Shown here: positions 50,101-59,400 of the stretch, piece after piece
Layout: each line of letters starts with the position of its first letter
Numbering within the stretch: position 1 is the first letter of the stretch
DNA from: the human T2T-CHM13v2.0 reference genome, Homo sapiens
Direction: 5' to 3' (one strand)
Assembly (NCBI RefSeq): GCF_009914755.1
Contig: NC_060938.1
DNA length: 64,000 nucleotides
The notes under the pieces: generated by a model
Seen by the model: the letters and a program-made list of their open reading frames with translations, nothing else
Databases searched by the model: none
What the model was told of the DNA's origin: nothing
Made by a program: the position numbers and the translations under genes

Positions 50101-51083
50101 TACCTATATACTTAATCTTCACAATTCTGTGAGGTAGGGATTATCTGCATTTGAATGAGAAGCCAAAGGAATTTAAAAAGAGAAGTAGCCAAGGCTGTAA
50201 TTTATTTGAGCAACCTTCAGAAGGAAAGTTGAGGAAGTTGCAGAAGAAAAGTTGGAAGACAGCAGAGGTTGGTTTGTTAAGTTTAAGGACAGAAGCCATC
50301 TCCATAACATAAAAGTGAAAGGTGAAGTAGCCAGTGCTGATGTTGTAGCTGCAGCAAGTTAACCAGAAGATCTAGCTAAAGTAATAGATGCAGTTAGCTA
50401 CAATAAACAATGGATGTTCAATGTAAACAAAACAGCATAATAGCATTCTATTAGAAGAAGATGCCATCTAGGATGTTCATAGCTAGAGAGGAGATGTCAA
50501 TGCAAGCCTTCAAAGCTTCAAAGGACAGGCTGACTCTCTTCTTAGGGGATAATGCAGCTAGTGACTTTAAATTTAAGTGAGCCAAGGCTTATTTACCATT
50601 CTGCTAACCTTAGGACCCTTAACAATTATGCTAAATCTACTCTGCTGTGCTCTATCAATAGAGTGACAAAGCCTGGATGACAGCACATATGTTAAGAGCA
50701 TGGTTAACTGATTATTTTAAGTCCCTTGTTGAGACCTGCTGCTCAGAAAAAAAAATAATTCCTTTCAAAATATTACTGCTCACTGACAATGCACCTTGTC
50801 CCCCAGGATCTCTGATGGAGATGTACAAGGAAATTTATCTTGTTTTCATGCCTCCGAACACAATATCCATTCTGCAGCCCATGGATTCAAGGAGTAATTT
50901 TGACTTTCAAGTTTTATTATTTAAGAAATACATTTTATAAGGCTACAGCTGCCATAAATAGTAGTTCCTCTGATAGATATAGGAAAAGTAAATTGAAAAC
51001 CTTCTGGAAAGGATTAATCATTCTAAATGCCATTGAGAATGTTCATGATTTATGGGAGGAGGTCAAAATGTCAACCTTAATAG

Positions 51084-52159
<1,076 letters not shown>

Positions 52160-53871
52160 AAAAGAAGTTTTGAAAAAGTTGGTTTCAGCCCTAATGGATG
52201 ACATGAAGGCATTCAAGACTTCAATGGAGAAAGTAACTGCAGAGTGGTGGAAATAGCAAGAGGACCAGAATTAGAAGTGGAGCCTGAATATGTGTCAGAA
52301 TTGCTTCAATCTCATGATAAAACTTGAATGAATGAAGAGTTGCTTTCTTGCTATGAGCAAAGAAAGTAGTTTCTTGAGATGGAATTTTTCCTGGTGAAGA
52401 TGCTGTGAATATTGTTGAAATGACAACAAAGGATTTAGAATATTCCATAAAATTAGCTGATAAAGCAGAAACAGGGTTTCAGAAGATAGATTCCAAATTT
52501 GAAAGAAGTTCTATTGTGGGTAAAATGCTATCAAACAGTGTCACATGCAACAGAGAAACCTTTCCTGAAAGGTTAAGTCAATTGATGTGTCAAATTTTAT
52601 TGATGCCTTATGATAAGAAATTGCCACAGCCATCCCAATATTCAGCAACAACCACTACCCCGATCAGTGAGCAGCCATCAACATCAAGACAAGATGCTCT
52701 GGGCAACCCTTCTGGGTTCCCATCCACTGCATGGAAGCTTTACTTTCATTTTCACTTACTTTTGCCTTTGCTTTAATAAATCTTGCAGCTGTACACTTTT
52801 TGGGTCTGTGCATTTCTCTACTCGAGCTGTAACACTTGCCACTGTGGCCCACAGCTTCATTCCTTGAAGCCCATGAGACCACGAACCTCTTGATCGAGAA
52901 AAACCTTTGATGGAAGAAGACTTCTCGTCTCCTTTCTGGGAGCCCATCTGGGATTTCTCCAAAGTGGTGAGTAACATTGGACCCCTTTCACTTGCTATTC
53001 TTTCTATCTTCTCACTAGAAATTGGAGGAAAACACAGGGTGCCTGTCAGCCATTTAAAAGCAACAAGTGTGGCTGCCAGACTTAAGACGGGTTTGAGGGT
53101 TTCTGGGAAAGGGCTCTCTAACAACCCCCAGCCCTCTGGTCTGGGAGCATTGGTTTGCCTGGAACCAGTTCCACCTTTCTCTACCTTTCCTGGGAAAAGC
53201 TGAGGGCTGGCTAGAGGTGGAAAACTGTCATCCTGAACTCCCGGCACTGACCTGGTCGAGATCATGGCACAGCAAGAAGCTTCTACTCCACAGCCACCCA
53301 TGTGTGCATTCCCTGCCTATTCTGACCCACGCCTCCTGGGTCCTAACGTCCTCAGAGAAGACTTTCTTGAGGCCCTATCCTCTAGGATCTTTCCTACCTC
53401 TGAGTCTAAGAATATTTTGGCTAGGAGCCTAAGTCGAGTGGGGTGACAATCCAAAGACCCTTGCCCATGGTGCCCCCAGGCTTATTCTTATGCAAATTGG
53501 TATCAATATACTTATACGGGACCTGTCCCTCATAACCTATACCCTAGGCACTACGTGGGACATCAAAAGGCATGTCAGTGGCTGATAGAAGGCCTAGGAC
53601 ATTTTTCCTTTTGTTGCCATAAACTTACTCCAGATTGTAGAGGCTACTTTAATTACCACCTTTCCTGTCTGGGATCAGCAATCAGAACTGTAGAACTTCT
53701 CCACTTTAAGCAGTCAGACTTATGTGCCAAAAACAATATAATAGACAATAGCTCCCCCGATTCAAGTCCAAAGGTCAATGAATATTCTCAGGAGGGCAAA
53801 TAGGGGACAGAAAATTTGGGTACGAAAAGCACTGTTCCAACCTTGGTCCTCCAATTTGCCGCTGCCTACCC

Positions 53872-54268
53872 TAAAAAAAACTTCAGAAGTCTGACTCGTG
53901 TGCTGAGAGAAATTTGGAAACTCTATTGAATTTGGCAGCTTTGGTGTTTTATAATAGGGATCAGGAGAAGCAGGTTGAACGAGATAGACGAGACAAGAGA
54001 AAGGCCATTGCCTTAGTCACGGCCCTCAGGCAGATGAACTTCGGTGACTCTGAAAGAAAGAAGGGCTGGGCAGGCAACCCACCTAACAGGACTTGATATC
54101 AGTGCGGCTCACAGGGGTACTTCAAAAAGGACTGCCCAAACAACAATAAGTCGCACCCTCATCCATGTCGCTTGTGCCAGGGGGAATCACTGGAATGCAC
54201 ACTGCCCCCAAGGGTGAAGGTCCTCTGAGCCAGAGGCCACTAACCAGATGGGCCAACAACAGGACTGA
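53872..54268 (+). pseudogene. gag: ERV gag C-terminal remnant (end of CA plus NC zinc knuckles)
   Basis: ETLLNLAALVFYNRDQE resembles HERV-W Gag; degraded knuckle QCGSQGYFKKDCP; TGA at 54266-54268. Confidence 0.88.
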
Positions 54269-54819
54269 GGGTGCCTGGGGCAGGTGCCAGCCCATGCCAT
54301 CACCCTCACAGAGCCTCGGGTAAGCTTAACCATTGAAGGTCAGGAAACTAACTTCCTCCTGGACACTGGTGAGGCCTTCTCAGTTTTACTCTTCTGCCCT
54401 GGACAACTGTCCTCCAGATCTGTCACCATCAAAGGGGTCCTAGGACAGCCAGTCACTAGGTATTTCTCCCACCCCCTAAGTTGTGACTGGGGAACCTTAT
54501 TTTTCTCACATGCCTTTCTTATTATGCCTGAGAGCCCTACTTCCTTACTAGGGAGGGACATATTAGCTAAAGCAGGGGTCATTATATACTTAAATATAGG
54601 AGAAGGAATACCTGTTTGTGCCCTCTACTCCATGAGGAAGTTAATCCTGAAGTCTGAGCAGAGGAAGGACAATACGGACTAGCAAAAAAATGCTTATCCA
54701 GTTCAAGTTAAATTAAAAGATCCTACCTCCTTTCCTTATCAAAGGCAGTACCCCCTCAGACCAGAAGCCCAACAAGGGTTACAAAAGATCGTCAAAGACC
54801 TAAAAGCACAGGGACTAGT
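54269..54819 (+). pseudogene. pro-pol: ERV protease plus first codons of RT
   Basis: FLLDTGEAFS (DTG at 54362-54370) and LLGRDIL; then RQYPLRPEAQQGLQKIVKDLKAQGLV before truncation. Confidence 0.9.
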
Positions 54820-55959
54820 CACTCACTCCTGCTTGCTAAATTTATTTAATGTCACCCTTACCGAAATTCACAAGGCCTCCAGCCAGAATCCAACTGACTG
54901 CTGGATGTGCCTCCCCTTACGCTTTAAACCATATGTCCCAGTTCCTGTTCCCGAACATTGGAATGCCACCAAACTAAGAACAAACACCACAGGCTTGGTG
55001 GGCCCTTTAGTCTCAAATCTAGAAATAACACATACACCAAATCTCACCTGTGTAAAGTTTAGCACAACCATTGATGCAGCTGCCTTCCAGTGCAAAACAT
55101 GAATTACCCTACCTCCACGACTCTCTTGCTTACCATCAGGAATCTTTTTTTTTGTGGTTCCTCAGCTTACCGCTGCTTAAACGGTTTCTTCAAAAGTCTA
55201 TGCTTTCTCTCCTTTTTGGAGCCCCCTATGACTATCTATACTGATCAGGAGTTACAGAATTTTCTTCTACCCAAATCTTCTACAAATGGGCACAAGTTCT
55301 GCCATTCATTATCAGGGCTGGGATACTAGGAGGACTAGGAACCAGCATTGGAGGCATTACCACCTCCCCCCCAGTTCTATTACAAATTAGCACAAGAGTT
55401 AAATGATGATATGGAATGAGTCGCAGATTTGCTGGTCACCTTACAAAGCCAGCTTAACTCTTTAGCAGCAGTAACCCTTCAAAATCGGAGAGCATTAGAT
55501 TTATTAACAGCCGAAAGAAGTGGAACCTATCTTTTTCTAGGAGAAAATGCTGCTATTTCGTTAATCAATTCGAAATTGTCACTGGGAAAGTTAAGGAGCT
55601 TTGAGACCGGATACAGCGCTGGGCACAAGAGCTCCAAGACACAGGATCTTGGAGTATTGTCAACCAATGGATGTCCTGGCTTCTCCCCTTCTTGGGACCC
55701 TTGGTGGCTATTGCGATGTTGCTTATCTTTGGACCCTGCATTTTTAACCTTCCTGTAAAAATTGTCTCTTCCAGAATAGAATCCATAAAACTGCAAATGG
55801 TTCTATAAATGGAGCGCCAAGTAACCACCACTAGCATCTACTATTGAGGACCCTTAGACCGACCTGCCAACCTGTTCTCGCACCACAAAACTGAAGACTC
55901 CCTTCCCGAGGAAACCTCAACTACAGAGCCCCTTCTACGCCCCAGCAGGAAATAGCTAG
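54820..55959 (+). pseudogene. env: Syncytin-1/HERV-W-related env remnant (C-terminal SU plus TM), disrupted
   Basis: QNPTDCWMCLPL, LVGPLVSNLEITHTPNLTCVKFS, immunosuppressive domain LQNRRALDLLTAERSGT, GPLDRPA tail; stops and frameshifts. Confidence 0.9.
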
Positions 55960-56015
55960 AACGATCTTTGCCCAACTTCCCAACAGCACTTGGCCTTTCC
56001 TGTTGAGAGAGGGGA

Positions 56016-56469
56016 TGAGGGACTAAGTGGCTAAGTTGGCCAAAATGAGTCATAGCTGCAAGCTAAGGGATTGAAACTTCAACCAATGAAAGGGGACTTT
56101 CCCCTAAGCCAAAGTAAGGCATAGCTGCAAGCTAAGGGATTGAAACTTCAACCAATCAAAGGGGACTTTCCCCTAAGCCAAAATGAGTCACAGCTGCAAA
56201 CTAAGGGATTGAAACTCCAACCAATCATATAGGGAGTTTATGCTCTAGCTGCAGCCTAATGTTTTTAACCAATCAGGCCTGCCAACACTAGCAGATAGAA
56301 AATAAGCTAATCCTATAGGACAGAAAAAGGAAAAGGGGAGGAGTCATAAGGGGATATAAGCATAAACATAACACACCCAAGCCAGAAATGGCAACCCCTT
56401 CTGGGTACCCTTCCACTGGGTGGAAGCTTTCCTTTCGCTTTCACTTTAATAAATCTTGCCGCCACACAC
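56016..56469 (+). promoter_or_regulatory. 3' LTR U3-R with 69-bp repeats (NF-kB, AP-1, CCAAT), TATA and AATAAA
   Basis: GGGACTTTCC 56093-56102 and 56162-56171; TGAGTCA 56046-56052 and 56184-56190; CCAAT x4; TATAA 56355-56359; AATAAA 56448-56453. Activity unproven. Confidence 0.75.
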
Positions 56470-59400
56470 ACCCCCACACAAAAGACCCTCCACCAAGAAA
56501 AAGATTACAACTCACTGAATAGTCAGATGATTGTTAGCATTATTTAGCAATACAGTGTTTTAAGTTGTGCACATTTTTAAAAACATAATGCTATTGCACA
56601 CTTAATAGACTACAGCATAGTATAAACATAACTTTTATACGTACTGGGAAACCAAAAAAAAAATTGTGTGACTTATTTTATTGTGATATGTTCTGTATCG
56701 TGTCGGTCTGCAATCAAACCCACAATATCTCAAGGTATGTCTGTATTTTTCTCTCTAAGTTCTGATATTCTGATAGCCTTTGGGTTTGTGTTGGTTATTT
56801 TGTTGTTATTGTTGTTAGTCTCCAGACCATAAGTGAAAATATATTGTGTAAAGGTACATTGTATCCTCAACTTTACAATTGTTTTAGGTGTTTTTTTTTT
56901 AAGATTTTATCCTTTAATATACATATAACCTGAATTATTAACATTTTAAAATGCAAGACTACTTCTAGAAGCTTCTTATAGCACTTTAAATAGTTTTCTG
57001 TTGATTAACATAGAGGCCATTAGTTGAGCTCTCTTTGGTGGAAACGTTGCTAACACTGCATATTGGCATCAGAATCCACAATTCTTGAATATCTTACCAC
57101 TGCCCACAATTTGGCACTTGGAGTTGAGTAAAGTAAATTACTTTTTTACAGTTCATGATATTTTAAAATCATTTTCGATGCCTGGGATTTCAAAATTCAT
57201 ATAAAACTAAAGCATATGTCCTTTTAAAATCCTAGCAATCTGTCATTTAATTGACTTGCTTGTGCTTTTTTTAAGCAAATAATAAAAATGTCTAAAATGA
57301 TTTGAAAGCTCTCGGTAGTATATCACATTCTTTTCTAACATTTAATGGACATGACTGTCTACATATTTTAGGACCTGGTATAATCTTTTAACTTTACTTT
57401 TTCTTTGCTTGTGTAATTAAAGGGTGGAGTTGGTACACAATTTAATAGTGTTCCTTTTTTCTCCTCAGAAATAACAAATTGGGTGACTAAACTTTTTAGC
57501 ATAGTGTACATTGGTCTATAAAATACAACTACAAACCAAATTTTTATGATACTGTATACAAGATGATATGTGTTTTAGATGTAATCTAGATACCATAGCT
57601 GACTTGATGACGACATTACAGTTAGCTATCCCAGGCTCAAAATCATGAGTGAGCCTTCAGGAACGTGCCTGATAGAAAACAGCCCTTAAACATCCAAACT
57701 CTAAGAAAGAGAAGTTCACAGTAAGTTAGCAGTAAACACTCACATTCTCTAAGTCAGCCAAATACAAGAAGCATGAGCATAGAGCCTATGTCCAAACTGT
57801 TTTAGCTAACCATAAGATTCAGTGTAGTGTTTTGAGCCTGATAAACACTAAAATCATGATACGATAAAGTTCTTTCCTTCCATCATTTAACAAAATTCAA
57901 TCCATCAAATGTACAGTGAATGTCCACTATATGTCAGGCTTATGCCAGGCATGAAGATAAGATGAATGACACAGATTCTGCCATCAAAGAGCTCACAATT
58001 TAGGGAAAGAGACAGGCACATAAAAAAATTAACTACAAATATGTGGCATGTAGTCTAAAAGAAGGAGATAAAAAATGTCATAGTTAGTTACCTAGCTAAG
58101 ATAGCAATGGATTTTTATCATCAACGCTACTATCATCACAATCCATGCTCTATATTTAGAAATGAAGATCAAAATATTATAAAATTAGAATATAATTTTT
58201 TAGTTTTTCCAATGCTTATAATATAAAGGTCTACATGCATGTCCAAATACACCAGTGTGTGTATTACTTTATATGTCATTGAACACTGTCTCATGCACCT
58301 CTTGACTAAGTAATGCTATTTGTGGGGGTTATGGCTATGACAACTACAAGTTAAGTGACTAGGGAACCACTTAATATTCTAATTTCATAATGCCAAATGT
58401 CCCTTACTCTACCTGATGCACCATATCACAGAATACTTATCATGACAAATTGAGAAATTATGACTACTCTTCATTCTAGGTTTTACTTATGAGAATGGTA
58501 CAAGAAATATTCACCTATATCTCCAGATATTACATTTCTACTGACTGAAGTTTTAAAAGTGCAAGTAATTAGCCTGGAGCAAGTTTGATTCCATTTTGAC
58601 TAATAATTTTTCAGAGCTCAGTTTTGGATTTTTCATTATTTTACTCTTCTTTCAAGTTTACCATGTACCTTCCAACAGCAATCTGCTTCTGTACCTCCAA
58701 GTGATGAAATTTCATTGAGGATACTTTCACAGCCCGTCATTATCACTCAGGATTAGCTTGGAAGATTTTACAATGGGTGAAAAAATGTTCCTTCTCTCTC
58801 CCTGTCACCCTCCATTATAATTCTAACCACTGTAGAAAACTAAATTTCTCACTTTGATCAGGGAGGAGAAAACTTGGGGCTAGAGGCAGATTAAGAGTCC
58901 CATAAGCAGATTTAGAGCATCATAAGTGGGTGGTAAGGTAGTTAGCATTTAACAAACAGTAAATAGACGCCAGGCACTGTGGTCAGGTATGTGTATATTA
59001 ATAGAATGCATCACTAAAAAAATCTTGTGAGGTTAGAATTTTTGTCTATATTTTAGTAGAAGATGCAAATTGAATCTTAGAAAGTCATTGAGCTATTAAA
59101 TGGTAATATGGGATTCAAATCCAATGGAAGCCTGAATGAATAGCAAGTGCAAAATTGAGGGACGTGGGGTATGACATCATCAGAGATTTGGCTGAAAATC
59201 TTGGCAAGTACAGTGGTAAAGTAAGAAACTGAATTCAAGTAGGTAGAAGTTGGGGAGGGAAGGCACACAGTTCCCACAGTCCTCTATCTAGCTCTCTGAC
59301 TCTTCTTCAAAATTGGATTCATGAGGTTGGTAAGTTAAAGTAGTCAGGGATAACAAGGGAACAATGATGGTTCAGTGTTCTAATGGGTTGGGAATTGGGG

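What the first reader, a model, noticed from the sequence alone, without database searches (positions are those of the whole stretch)
52691..56490. L1-retroposed mRNA copy of a HERV-W-like but non-LTR17 retrovirus
Seen: the element starts at GGCAACCC, a few nt after the start site predicted from the 3' LTR TATA, so it has no 5' U3. It ends ~16 nt after AATAAA with no U5, followed by a short A/C-rich tail. It is flanked by an imperfect 9-bp duplication of Tigger1 (52691-52699, 56482-56490) rather than a 4-bp integrase TSD. Established: R-U5...U3-R-poly(A) processed pseudogenes are characteristic of HERV-W and rare in other HERVs. Here the proteins are HERV-W-like but the U3 differs from LTR17 (tentatively LTR61). 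Inference: a sister lineage also used L1 machinery, which could help map the cis feature that makes these RNAs L1 substrates.
Basis: partly seen in the sequence, partly recalled or inferred. Interest (0 to 1): 0.8.

Follow-up and report, generated by a model that had tools for sequence, protein, structure and literature searches.

The report
L1-copied transcript of a HERV-W cousin
This stretch is a dead DNA copy of an ancient retrovirus messenger RNA that the L1 jumping gene pasted into the genome, and it shows with six sister copies that a cousin of the HERV-W virus family was copied this way too.

Summary
The element (window 52701-56469, +) starts at the LTR transcription start with no 5' U3. 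It ends 16 nt after AATAAA with no U5, followed by a 12-nt A/C tail. It sits between a 9-10-bp duplication of a Tigger-type transposon. This copy's tail and duplication are weak on their own. Six more retrocopies of the same family elsewhere in the genome make the case. Five of five full-length copies start at the same nucleotide. Five sisters carry clean poly(A) or A-rich tails with 9-26-bp duplications. U3-bearing proviral copies instead have TG..CA ends, and two of the three whose ends I read have 4-bp duplications.

The internal sequence is HERV-W-like: 71-79% nucleotide identity to the ERVW-1 provirus. TATA and R are homologous to LTR17, but the rest of U3 is not alignable. Published RepeatMasker annotations of sister loci call the LTR LTR12F, not LTR61.

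The locus is already listed in print as "HERV-W-like", with orthologs down to rhesus. I found no paper calling these elements processed pseudogenes, and reviews call HERV-W the only HERV group mobilised by L1.

Verdict: real, correctly interpreted, a new member of a known kind, of moderate interest.

The parts
52691..52700 (+). 5' copy of the target-site duplication (AAGATGCTC, then T)
   Evidence: It matches 56482-56491 at 7 of 10. Six of six other Tigger-type copies have this stretch once.
52701..52796 (+). 5' R. Starts GGGCAACCC, with one G more than the LTR has at this point. Contains AATAAA at 52775-52780 and a 16-nt extra CTTT-type unit absent from the 3' R.
   Evidence: alignment to 56390-56446. 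Searches show the same start in 5 of 5 full-length retrocopies; U3-bearing LTRs read ..AAA[CG/TG/CA]GCAACCC.
52797..52932 (+). U5, ending ..CGTCTCC where proviral copies end ..GTCTCA
   Evidence: Solo and proviral LTRs match up to window-equivalent 52931.
52937..52954 (+). Primer-binding-site remnant TGGGAGCCCATCTGGGAT, resembling the tRNA-Pro type
   Evidence: The C6 provirus reads TGGGGGCCTGTCCGGGAT at the same place. The MLV tRNA-Pro PBS is TGGGGGCTCGTCCGGGAT in PMC1769482 (passage). Compared by eye.
52955..53871 (+). Leader and pre-gag region. Broken ORF at 53237-53803 carrying motifs of the MC132-like pre-gag protein.
   Evidence: translations. 74.7% identity to the ERVW-1 leader over 52958-53408, and no ERVW-1 match for 53409-53860. 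Motifs compared by eye with the passage of PMC9927554.
53872..53879 (+). A8 run marking a private deletion of about 1.5 kb of gag
   Evidence: Every other internal-bearing copy has 0.7-2.5 kb here. The junction lies between two short A runs and is not GT..AG.
53880..54268 (+). gag C-terminal remnant
   Evidence: 53861-54819 aligns to the ERVW-1 provirus at 78.6%. One search shows a zinc-knuckle-like YQCGSQGYFKKDC.
54269..54682 (+). Protease remnant
   Evidence: Pfam RVP, E 1.9e-10.
54683..54819 (+). First about 45 codons of pol, ending at the pol-env deletion junction 54819/54820
   Evidence: About 3.4 kb present in the C3 provirus is missing. The Y-chromosome provirus (C24) shares the same junction. 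It is not GT..AG.
54820..55808 (+). env remnant: SU C-terminal part from the CWMC motif, and TM, with frameshifts and stops
   Evidence: TLV_coat pieces. TM heptad/immunosuppressive region matches syncytin-1 (5ha6, 6rx1), E about 6e-16; 70.8% nucleotide identity to ERVW-1 env.
56005..56015 (+). Polypurine tract GAGAGAGGGGA
   Evidence: It lies directly before the LTR start TGAGGGACTAAG, which is shared with proviral copies.
56016..56389 (+). Complete U3. 69-bp unit x2.7 (56039-56227), each unit with a CCAAT box. GGGACTTTCC at 56093 and 56162. TATAAG at 56355-56360.
   Evidence: Only 54 of 83 positions of one local stretch align to the ERVW-1 LTR.
56390..56469 (+). 3' R with AATAAA (56448-56453); the transcript end is 16 nt later
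56470..56481 (+). Short A/C tail ACCCCCACACAA, taken as a decayed poly(A)
   Evidence: Sister copies have A15-A20 or A-rich tails at the same point.
56482..56491 (+). 3' copy of the target-site duplication (AAGACCCTC, then C)

Best explanation
The element is an L1-made processed pseudogene of a genomic-length retroviral transcript.

1. The source was a defective provirus of the ERV-W-like lineage whose LTRs RepeatMasker calls LTR12F. It already lacked about 3.4 kb of pol-env, like the provirus still present on the Y chromosome.
2. RNA polymerase II started about 30 nt after the LTR TATA box, at the G of CGGCAACCC.
3. The RNA was cleaved and polyadenylated 14-18 nt after the AATAAA of the 3' LTR.
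4. L1 ORF2 protein nicked a Tigger-type transposon at an A-rich site (..GRC/AAGACC..), primed on the poly(A) tail, and copied the whole RNA including one extra G at the capped end.
5. The insertion made a 9-10-bp target duplication.

The copy therefore has R-U5 at the left, U3-R-tail at the right, no promoter at its 5' end and a complete but stranded promoter at its 3' end. It has been decaying for roughly 25-30 million years or more.

Shown here: the two transcript-defined ends, the duplication, and the family pattern. Inferred: the L1 enzyme, the cap origin of the extra G, the tail having been poly(A), and the identity of the source.
For: (1) Ends. R starts at the same base at both ends. There is no U3 upstream and no U5 downstream, whereas 34 of 40 examined LTR copies continue into U5.

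(2) Same 5' start in five independent insertions: W, C12:14093397, C8:129509821, C15:49164901 and C1:154776226 all begin (T)GGG(A)CAACCC. In 39 of 40 U3-bearing LTRs this point reads A[CG/TG/CA]GCAACCC, with at most two G.

(3) Same 3' end in six insertions, 8-16 nt after AATAAATCT, followed by a tail: A15 (C12), A16 (C8), A20 (C1), A-rich (C11, C14:81059745), or the A/C tail here.

(4) TSDs:
- C12: AAAGAATCC, perfect
- C8: AAAAATACAGGGC(C), 13-14 bp, perfect
- C1: A(n)G(G)ATT
- C11: 16 of 17 with a 2-nt indel
- C14b: 25 of 26 with a 1-nt indel
- W: 7 of 9
All start with AAA(A/G) or AAGA, preceded by TT in C12 and C8.

(5) Two sister copies (C11, C14b) are 5'-truncated, as L1 products often are.

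(6) Contrast. Proviral copies C6 and C3 have TG..CA LTR ends and 4-bp TSDs, ATAT and CCAG.

(7) The method recovers the known HERV-W pattern. Of 18 HERV-W loci, 10 start at R, 5 have U3, and 3 start further in.

(8) Lineage.
- The family forms a star-like cluster far from ERVW-1.
- Identity to the ERVW-1 provirus is 74.7% (leader), 78.6% (gag-pro) and 70.8% (env), against 84-92% within the family.
- U3 is not alignable to LTR17 apart from the TATA-proximal part.
- The ERVW-1 reference was verified: 357 of 359 aligned residues are identical to PDB syncytin-1, the two differences falling at positions mutated or truncated in the crystallised construct.

(9) Age. W's end branch is 0.053-0.067. A rhesus ortholog is listed in PMC5775608 Table S3.
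Against: In this copy alone the signature is weak.
- The tail has only 5 A in 12 nt, and would need several A-to-C changes or microsatellite-like drift.
- The TSD has 2 mismatches in 9.
- The target site (GRC/AAGA) is not the canonical TT/AAAA.
- Whether the leading T (52700) is the first base of the RNA or the last base of the TSD cannot be settled. The 3' TSD copies have C there in W, C12 and C8.
- Whether the 1.5-kb gag deletion predates insertion is unknown.
- The LTR12F name rests on published annotation of sister loci matched to T2T coordinates by position, strand and length. It was not tested by a Dfam or RepeatMasker run.
- I did not see the primate orthologs or an empty site.
- The census is a lower bound. 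Only 40 of 111 U3-R candidates, 40 of 942 leader candidates and 40 of 455 env-U3 candidates were scored.
Confidence: 0.9

Rival explanations
1. An ordinary integrase-made provirus that later lost its 5' U3 and its 3' U5 through two separate deletions. On this reading the apparent 9-bp duplication is chance similarity within the transposon.
For: The tail is not a real poly(A) and the duplication is imperfect. Deletions are common in this family; three different pol-env deletions were seen.
Against: Two deletions would have to end exactly at the transcription start and at the polyadenylation site. The same two boundaries recur in four other full-length insertions and, for the 3' end, in five others. 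Those have clean tails and long TSDs. Six of six comparator transposon copies carry the duplicated stretch once. Integrase-made copies of this family show 4-bp TSDs.
Confidence: 0.03
2. It is simply one of the known HERV-W (HERV17/LTR17) processed pseudogenes, heavily diverged, so nothing beyond the textbook case.
For: RepeatMasker labels the internal part HERV17 (PMC5775608 Table S3). The env TM is closest to syncytin-1 among solved structures. TATA and R are homologous to LTR17.
Against: Most of U3 does not align to the ERVW-1 LTR, and U5 is about 135 nt against several hundred. Internal identity to ERVW-1 is 71-79%, while 18 true HERV-W loci are 80-89% identical to the ERVW-1 LTR-leader. 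This family's members are 84-92% identical to each other. The family is set well apart from ERVW-1 in the trees, although ERVW-1 was the only outgroup. The HERV-W authors themselves excluded these loci from the 213 HERV-W loci and listed them as HERV-W-like.
Confidence: 0.04
3. The copies were made not by L1 but by the retrovirus's own, or another ERV's, reverse transcriptase acting on polyadenylated RNA without normal strand transfers.
For: Not excluded by sequence alone for this single copy, whose target site is non-canonical.
Against: Poly(A) tails at the junction, 9-26-bp TSDs, A-rich TSD starts preceded by TT in two copies, insertion into an Alu A-tail (C1), and 5' truncation (C11, C14b) are the L1 target-primed pattern. 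No integrase-type 4-bp TSD was seen in any R-to-R copy.
Confidence: 0.02

Closest known systems
HERV-W (HERV17/LTR17) processed pseudogenes (Pavlicek 2002; Costas 2002; Grandi 2016)
   Same: Same architecture: R-U5-internal-U3-R-poly(A), long TSDs, frequent 5' truncation and recurrent internal deletions. The excess of pseudogenes over proviruses is similar: here at least 6 internal-bearing retrocopies against 4 U3-bearing copies, and about 2:1 in HERV-W (PMC5775608 passages). TATA box, R and transcription start are homologous within a few nucleotides. The env TM is syncytin-1-like.
   Different: Most of U3 is unrelated. U5 is much shorter. Internal identity to ERVW-1 is only 71-79%. A longer pre-gag region with an MC132-like ORF remnant has no counterpart in ERVW-1 over 53409-53860. 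The PBS remnant is tRNA-Pro-like (by eye). Pavlicek 2002 (PMC155283) was not held and I did not try to fetch Costas 2002; Grandi 2016 notes that Pavlicek's set may have included HERV9-like sequences.
LTR12F-HERV17-LTR12F proviruses, such as human Yq11.221 (Grandi 2018, 2020)
   Same: Same family. The Y provirus (T2T C24:15247071-15251883) matches the window element at 84-88% and shares its pol-env deletion junction. [quoted passage not shown]
   Different: Those are integrase-made proviruses with two full LTRs. The window element and six sisters are R-to-R retrocopies. The passages I read do not mention this feature for these loci.
Platyrrhini ERV-W-like elements (ERV1-1_CJa)
   Same: Described in print as the closest relatives of the LTR12F-flanked catarrhine elements. 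LTR similarity is 55%, against 34% for canonical HERV-W LTRs (PMC6995185 passage).
   Different: Reported to have no processed pseudogenes at all. I had no New World monkey sequence to compare.
Processed pseudogenes of cellular mRNAs
   Same: Same L1 target-primed mechanism and hallmarks: transcript-defined ends, poly(A), TSD, and an extra 5' G. The last point is recalled knowledge.
   Different: The template is a retroviral genomic RNA, so the copy carries a complete U3 promoter at its 3' end.

Membership tests
L1-mediated processed pseudogene (retrocopy) | 5' end at the transcription start of the source gene (no promoter/U3) | tested here: met
   Starts at GGGCAACCC, 30-35 nt after TATA. Same start in 5 of 5 full-length copies. 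No U3 upstream.
L1-mediated processed pseudogene (retrocopy) | 3' end at the polyadenylation site (no U5) | tested here: met
   Ends 16 nt after AATAAA. 34 of 40 other LTR copies continue into U5; 6 of 40, this one included, stop here.
L1-mediated processed pseudogene (retrocopy) | Poly(A) tail | tested here: inconclusive
   The window copy has only ACCCCCACACAA. Five sister copies have A15-A20 or long A-rich tails.
L1-mediated processed pseudogene (retrocopy) | Target-site duplication of about 7-20 bp | tested here: met
   9-10 bp, 7 of 9 identical. The stretch is single in 6 of 6 comparator transposon copies. Sisters have 9-26 bp.
L1-mediated processed pseudogene (retrocopy) | L1 endonuclease-type target (TT/AAAA-like) | tested here: inconclusive
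   The window site is GRC/AAGACC, which is A-rich but non-canonical. C12 is TT/AAAG, C8 TT/AAAA, C1 TC/AAAA, C11 AT/AAAA.
HERV-W proper (HERV17 with LTR17) | LTR of type LTR17 | tested here: not met
   Against the LTR of the verified ERVW-1 provirus: U3 gives 54 of 83 in one local stretch and nothing else, R gives 51 of 68, U5 gives 65 of 86.
HERV-W proper (HERV17 with LTR17) | Internal sequence clusters with HERV-W copies | tested here: not met
   71-79% to ERVW-1, against 84-92% within its own family. Set well apart from ERVW-1 in the trees, with ERVW-1 as the only outgroup. No HERV17, HERV9 or HERV30 consensus was available here.
LTR12F (Repbase/Dfam LTR family filed with HERV9) | Match to the LTR12F consensus/HMM | not testable with these tools
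   No Dfam or RepeatMasker here. Indirect evidence: sister loci matched by chromosome, position, strand and length are annotated 'LTR12F, HERV17' in PMC5775608 Table S3 (hg19 12:14369478, 8:129390098, 15:51649330). The Y provirus is annotated LTR12F-HERV17-LTR12F in PMC6995185. LTR length of about 500-600 bp agrees with 'about 500 bp (LTR12F)' in PMC11853044.
   No consensus available. A published table pairs LTR61 with HERV3, a different supergroup (PMC5753468 passage). That does not fit an ERV-W-like interior.

The most novel reading that the evidence does not exclude
HERV-W is not the only ERV group that L1 mobilised. The LTR12F-flanked ERV-W-like lineage has a different U3, a short U5 and a tRNA-Pro-like PBS, yet it made retrocopies at about the same rate relative to proviruses (at least 7 retrocopies against 4 U3-bearing internal copies). 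This has not been described. Whatever made these RNAs good L1 templates therefore lies either in what the two lineages share (the R region, leader or internal sequence) or in germline expression during the catarrhine L1 burst. It does not lie in the LTR17-specific parts. A three-way comparison with the pseudogene-free New World monkey relatives could then locate it.
Probability: 0.55. Interest if true: 0.55.

Novelty: new member of a known kind. Interest (0 to 1): 0.45.

Why it matters
Reviews state that HERV-W is the sole HERV group mobilised by L1 (PMC5537654 abstract). The same authors argue that the lack of pseudogenes among the closely related New World monkey elements points to a central role of the LTRs in L1 recognition (PMC5775608 discussion passage), or to low L1 activity there (PMC6995185).

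A second catarrhine lineage with a largely different LTR but the same behaviour is a natural control for that question. It argues against an LTR17-specific U3 or U5 signal. It narrows candidates to the shared R and leader, or to host and timing.

It also corrects annotation practice. U3-less 'truncated LTR12F' fragments can be the 5' ends of retrocopies rather than decayed solo LTRs. One such fragment appears to be the published interferon-responsive enhancer upstream of HERV-K102.

The element itself is non-coding debris with no sign of present function.

Tried and rejected
- Splicing as the cause of the internal deletions: rejected. None of the three junctions inspected in the long C3 provirus is GT..AG. 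The window's pol-env junction is also present in a provirus with two LTRs (C24).
- A single master source for all retrocopies: not supported. The window shares its pol-env deletion with the Y provirus, while C8, C12, C11 and probably C1 share a different one. Trees of three regions are star-like and resolve nothing, except C1+C24 in env-U3 (97/96).
- My first guess that the published LTR12F near HERV-K102 was the 3' U3-R end of the C1 retrocopy was wrong. The HML-2 provirus lies inside the retrocopy. The published 'truncated, TSS-less' fragment fits the 5' R-U5 end.
- Pfam found nothing for the pre-gag ORF pieces.
- Pavlicek 2002 (PMC155283) is not held, so I cannot say whether that data set already contained such copies.
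So I could not fetch the gap in C12 (14095978-14096536), the 3' continuation of C15 and C5, the remaining candidate LTRs, or HERV9/HERV30 proviruses for a wider tree or a test of whether those groups also have retrocopies.
- No structure prediction, complex prediction or large protein search was needed.

Full report
WHAT IS THERE

The element occupies window 52701-56469 on the + strand.

- Left end. It reads GGGCAACCCTTCTGGG.. and aligns from 52702 to the R region of the right-hand LTR from 56390.
- Left LTR part. R (with AATAAA at 52775-52780) runs into U5, which ends at 52932 (..CGTCTCC). A primer-binding-site remnant follows at 52937-52954.
- Right LTR. It starts at 56016 (TGAGGGACTAAG, after a polypurine tract). 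It has a 69-bp unit repeated 2.7 times and TATAAG at 56355. R starts at 56390 and AATAAA is at 56448.
- Right end. The match to the family stops at about 56469. Then come 12 nt, ACCCCCACACAA, and the flank.
- Interior. Between the ends lie a leader and pre-gag region, a gag tail, a protease (Pfam RVP, E 1.9e-10), some 45 codons of pol, and the back half of env (TLV_coat pieces). All are broken.
- The env TM stretch is closest to syncytin-1 among solved structures (5ha6 and 6rx1, E about 6e-16).

THE FLANKS

The host sequence is a pogo/Tigger-type DNA transposon (DDE_1 at 50662-50940). AAGATGCTC (52691-52699) and AAGACCCTC (56482-56490) bracket the insert. Six of six other copies of that transposon read ..CAAGACCCTCCACCAGC.. 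or a near variant once, so 9-10 bp were duplicated on insertion. For this copy alone, though, the tail is poor and the duplication imperfect.

THE FAMILY

I searched the window's own assembly with three parts of the element.

U3-R query. It gave 45 match rows at 83-100% identity. Of 111 candidates, 40 were scored. By my count of overlapping rows, these are 40 distinct LTR copies. I read the 3' side of all 40 (30, 10).
- 34 of 40 continue into U5.
- 6 of 40 stop 8-16 nt after AATAAATCT and carry a tail. These are the window copy, C12:14098475, C8:129504836, C1:154760600, C11:114357110 and C14:81059745.

R-U5-leader query. It found nine loci at 83% or more.
- Five have no U3 and begin at the same place, (T)GGG(A)CAACCC: the window, C12, C8, C15:49164901 and C1.
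- Four have U3: C3, C6, C5 and C24.

env-U3 query. It found no further members. Eight loci were at 84% or more. The other 32 rows were at 70-74%, among them ERVW-1 itself.

Target-site duplications:
- C12: AAAGAATCC, perfect, after A15
- C8: AAAAATACAGGGC(C), perfect, after A16
- C1: A(n)G(G)ATT, after A20, inside an Alu tail
- C11: 16 of 17 with a 2-nt indel; this copy is 5'-truncated in gag
- C14b: 25 of 26 with a 1-nt indel; 5'-truncated inside U3, with a 65-nt A/T-rich tail
- C15: has lost its 3' part

Every duplication starts with AAA(A/G) or AAGA. C12 and C8 are preceded by TT.

By contrast, the C6 and C3 proviruses have TG..CA LTR ends and 4-bp duplications (ATAT, and CCAG within an Alu). 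C24's flanks do not match.

As a control, I applied the same reading to 18 true HERV-W loci picked up. It gave 10 starting at R, 5 with U3, and 3 starting further in. This is the known excess of pseudogenes.

THE 5' START

In 39 of 40 U3-bearing LTRs the U3/R border reads ..CCAGAAA[CG/TG/CA]GCAACCC, about 29-30 nt after the first T of TATAAG. The window's own 3' LTR has 35 nt because of a small private insertion.

The five retrocopy starts have one G more. That fits the extra G which L1 copies from the cap (recalled knowledge, inference).

The T before it may be the first RNA base. Alternatively it may be the last duplicated base changed from C at a newly created CpG; the 3' duplicates have C there in the window, C12 and C8. 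I cannot decide this. The boundary is the same within one base either way.

WHICH VIRUS

I located ERVW-1 by a TLV_coat scan (C7:93710269-93711453, open frame 540 aa). I confirmed it: 357 of 359 aligned residues are identical to PDB syncytin-1, the two differences falling at positions mutated or truncated in the crystallised construct.

Identity of the window element to that provirus:
- Leader: 74.7%
- gag-pro: 78.6%
- env: 70.8%
- R: about 75%
- Window 53409-53860: no match
- U3: no match beyond one TATA-proximal stretch (54 of 83)

Family members are 84-92% identical to the window element. In trees of three regions the family is a star, with end branches of about 0.04-0.10 (the window's are 0.053-0.067). 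ERVW-1 lies far outside.

So the interior is HERV-W-like. The promoter core and R are homologous to LTR17. The LTR as a whole is a different family.

THE NAME

I could not run Dfam, so the name comes from published annotation.

[quoted passage not shown] Orthologs are listed in chimpanzee, gorilla, orangutan, gibbon and rhesus. By chromosome, strand, size and distance to SSTR1 this is the window element. The hg19 position of SSTR1 is recalled.

The same table lists 12:14369478, 8:129390098 and 15:51649330 as 'LTR12F, HERV17'. It also lists 11:114217924, 6:115319550, 5:18742581 and 9:29776755 as 'HERV17'. These fit my C12, C8, C15, C11, C6, C5 and C9 loci by position, strand and length.

INTERNAL DELETIONS (coordinates of the long C3 provirus)

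- The window and the Y provirus share one pol-env deletion (121566806 to 121570239).
- C8, C12, C11 and probably C1 share another (121567101 to 121570719).
- C6 has a third.
- The window alone lacks about 1.5 kb of gag, with the junction in an A8 run.
- None of the junctions is GT..AG.

So these are deletions of source proviruses or later events, not splicing. At least two different defective sources were retrocopied.

IS IT KNOWN

The locus, the family and the LTR12F/HERV17 pairing are in print. The processed-pseudogene mechanism is textbook for HERV-W.

I did not find any statement that the LTR12F-type elements are processed pseudogenes.
- Searches were.
- Only three papers hold both 'LTR12F' and 'processed pseudogene'. 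I read their relevant passages.
- Table S3 has no provirus/pseudogene column, unlike Table S4.
- The 2017 review abstract calls HERV-W the sole HERV group mobilised by L1.
- I could not read Pavlicek 2002 and did not try to fetch Costas 2002.
- Grandi 2016 remarks that Pavlicek's set may have included HERV9-like sequences.

I could not see figures or tree files of the supplements.

VERDICT

The LTR name needs correcting to LTR12F.

The finding is a new member of a known kind. It bears modestly but usefully on why ERV-W RNAs were such good L1 templates, because a lineage with a different U3 and U5 behaved the same way. The simplest alternative to a cis signal is strong germline expression during the catarrhine L1 burst, and that remains open.

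Noticed in passing
G000 C1:154760600-154776226 (-); loci L039, L040, L063: A sister retrocopy at 1q22 is split by an HML-2 provirus. That provirus is the top HERV-K_env_2 hit of the genome, at C1:154767404-154767910 (-), with no stops. The published 'truncated LTR12F that lacks its own TSS' acts as an IFN-gamma/IRF1 enhancer and as the ERVK-7.short promoter region upstream of HERV-K102. It fits the U3-less R-U5 5' end of this retrocopy (about C1:154775991-154776226). If so, it is not a decayed solo LTR. The coordinates were matched by inference only.
   Followed up: partly
window 53237-53803: A broken pre-gag reading frame carries motifs (SDP.LLGPNV, DPC.WCP, GPVPH, GLGHF, VELL). These are also visible in the MC132-like 'immune-suppressing' ERV protein printed in PMC9927554. 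The match here is longer than in ERVW-1, which has no counterpart for 53409-53860. Compared by eye only; Pfam found nothing.
   Followed up: partly
window 56093-56102 and 56162-56171: Two exact GGGACTTTCC (classical NF-kappaB-type) motifs, one in each full 69-bp U3 repeat. These are the only two in the 64-kb window; 0.12 are expected by chance, and 0 of 100 shuffles reached two. Each repeat also has a CCAAT box. This is curious beside a pre-gag ORF related to a poxvirus protein said to act on NF-kappaB (recalled).
   Followed up: partly
window 52735-52775 and 56425-56447; R of all family LTRs: R contains a variable number of CTTTC(A/G)CTTT units (one search shows a period of 11; searches show 2-8 units in different copies). 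Read on the other strand these are GAAA repeats of the AANNGAAA/IRF type, which the LTR12 review names for the HERV-K102 enhancer. Not tested.
   Followed up: no
window 52937-52954; L077 (C6 provirus) after the 5' LTR: The primer-binding-site remnant resembles the tRNA-Pro type. C6 reads TGGGGGCCTGTCCGGGAT, against the MLV sequence TGGGGGCTCGTCCGGGAT (PMC1769482). So this 'W-like' lineage would not be 'W' by the PBS naming rule. The ERVW-1 PBS was not compared.
   Followed up: partly
window 51084-51947: A 287-codon open frame inside the Tigger-type element looks like the C-terminal part of L1 ORF2 (recalled resemblance; no Pfam hit). If so, an older L1 fragment also interrupts the same transposon.
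   Followed up: no
G000 C8:129504240-129504836; L061: The C8 sister retrocopy is inserted antisense into the env TM region of another ERV (TLV_coat hit at C8:129504240-129504818 +, open 221 aa). Its 14-bp TSD is perfect.
   Followed up: no
G000 C3:121564845-121565868; L075: The long C3 provirus carries a private 1-kb insertion ending in an A-rich tail. It sits at the same A-rich gag site where C15 has an Alu and where the window copy has its deletion junction. This looks like a local hot spot for L1-type insertion and rearrangement.
   Followed up: partly
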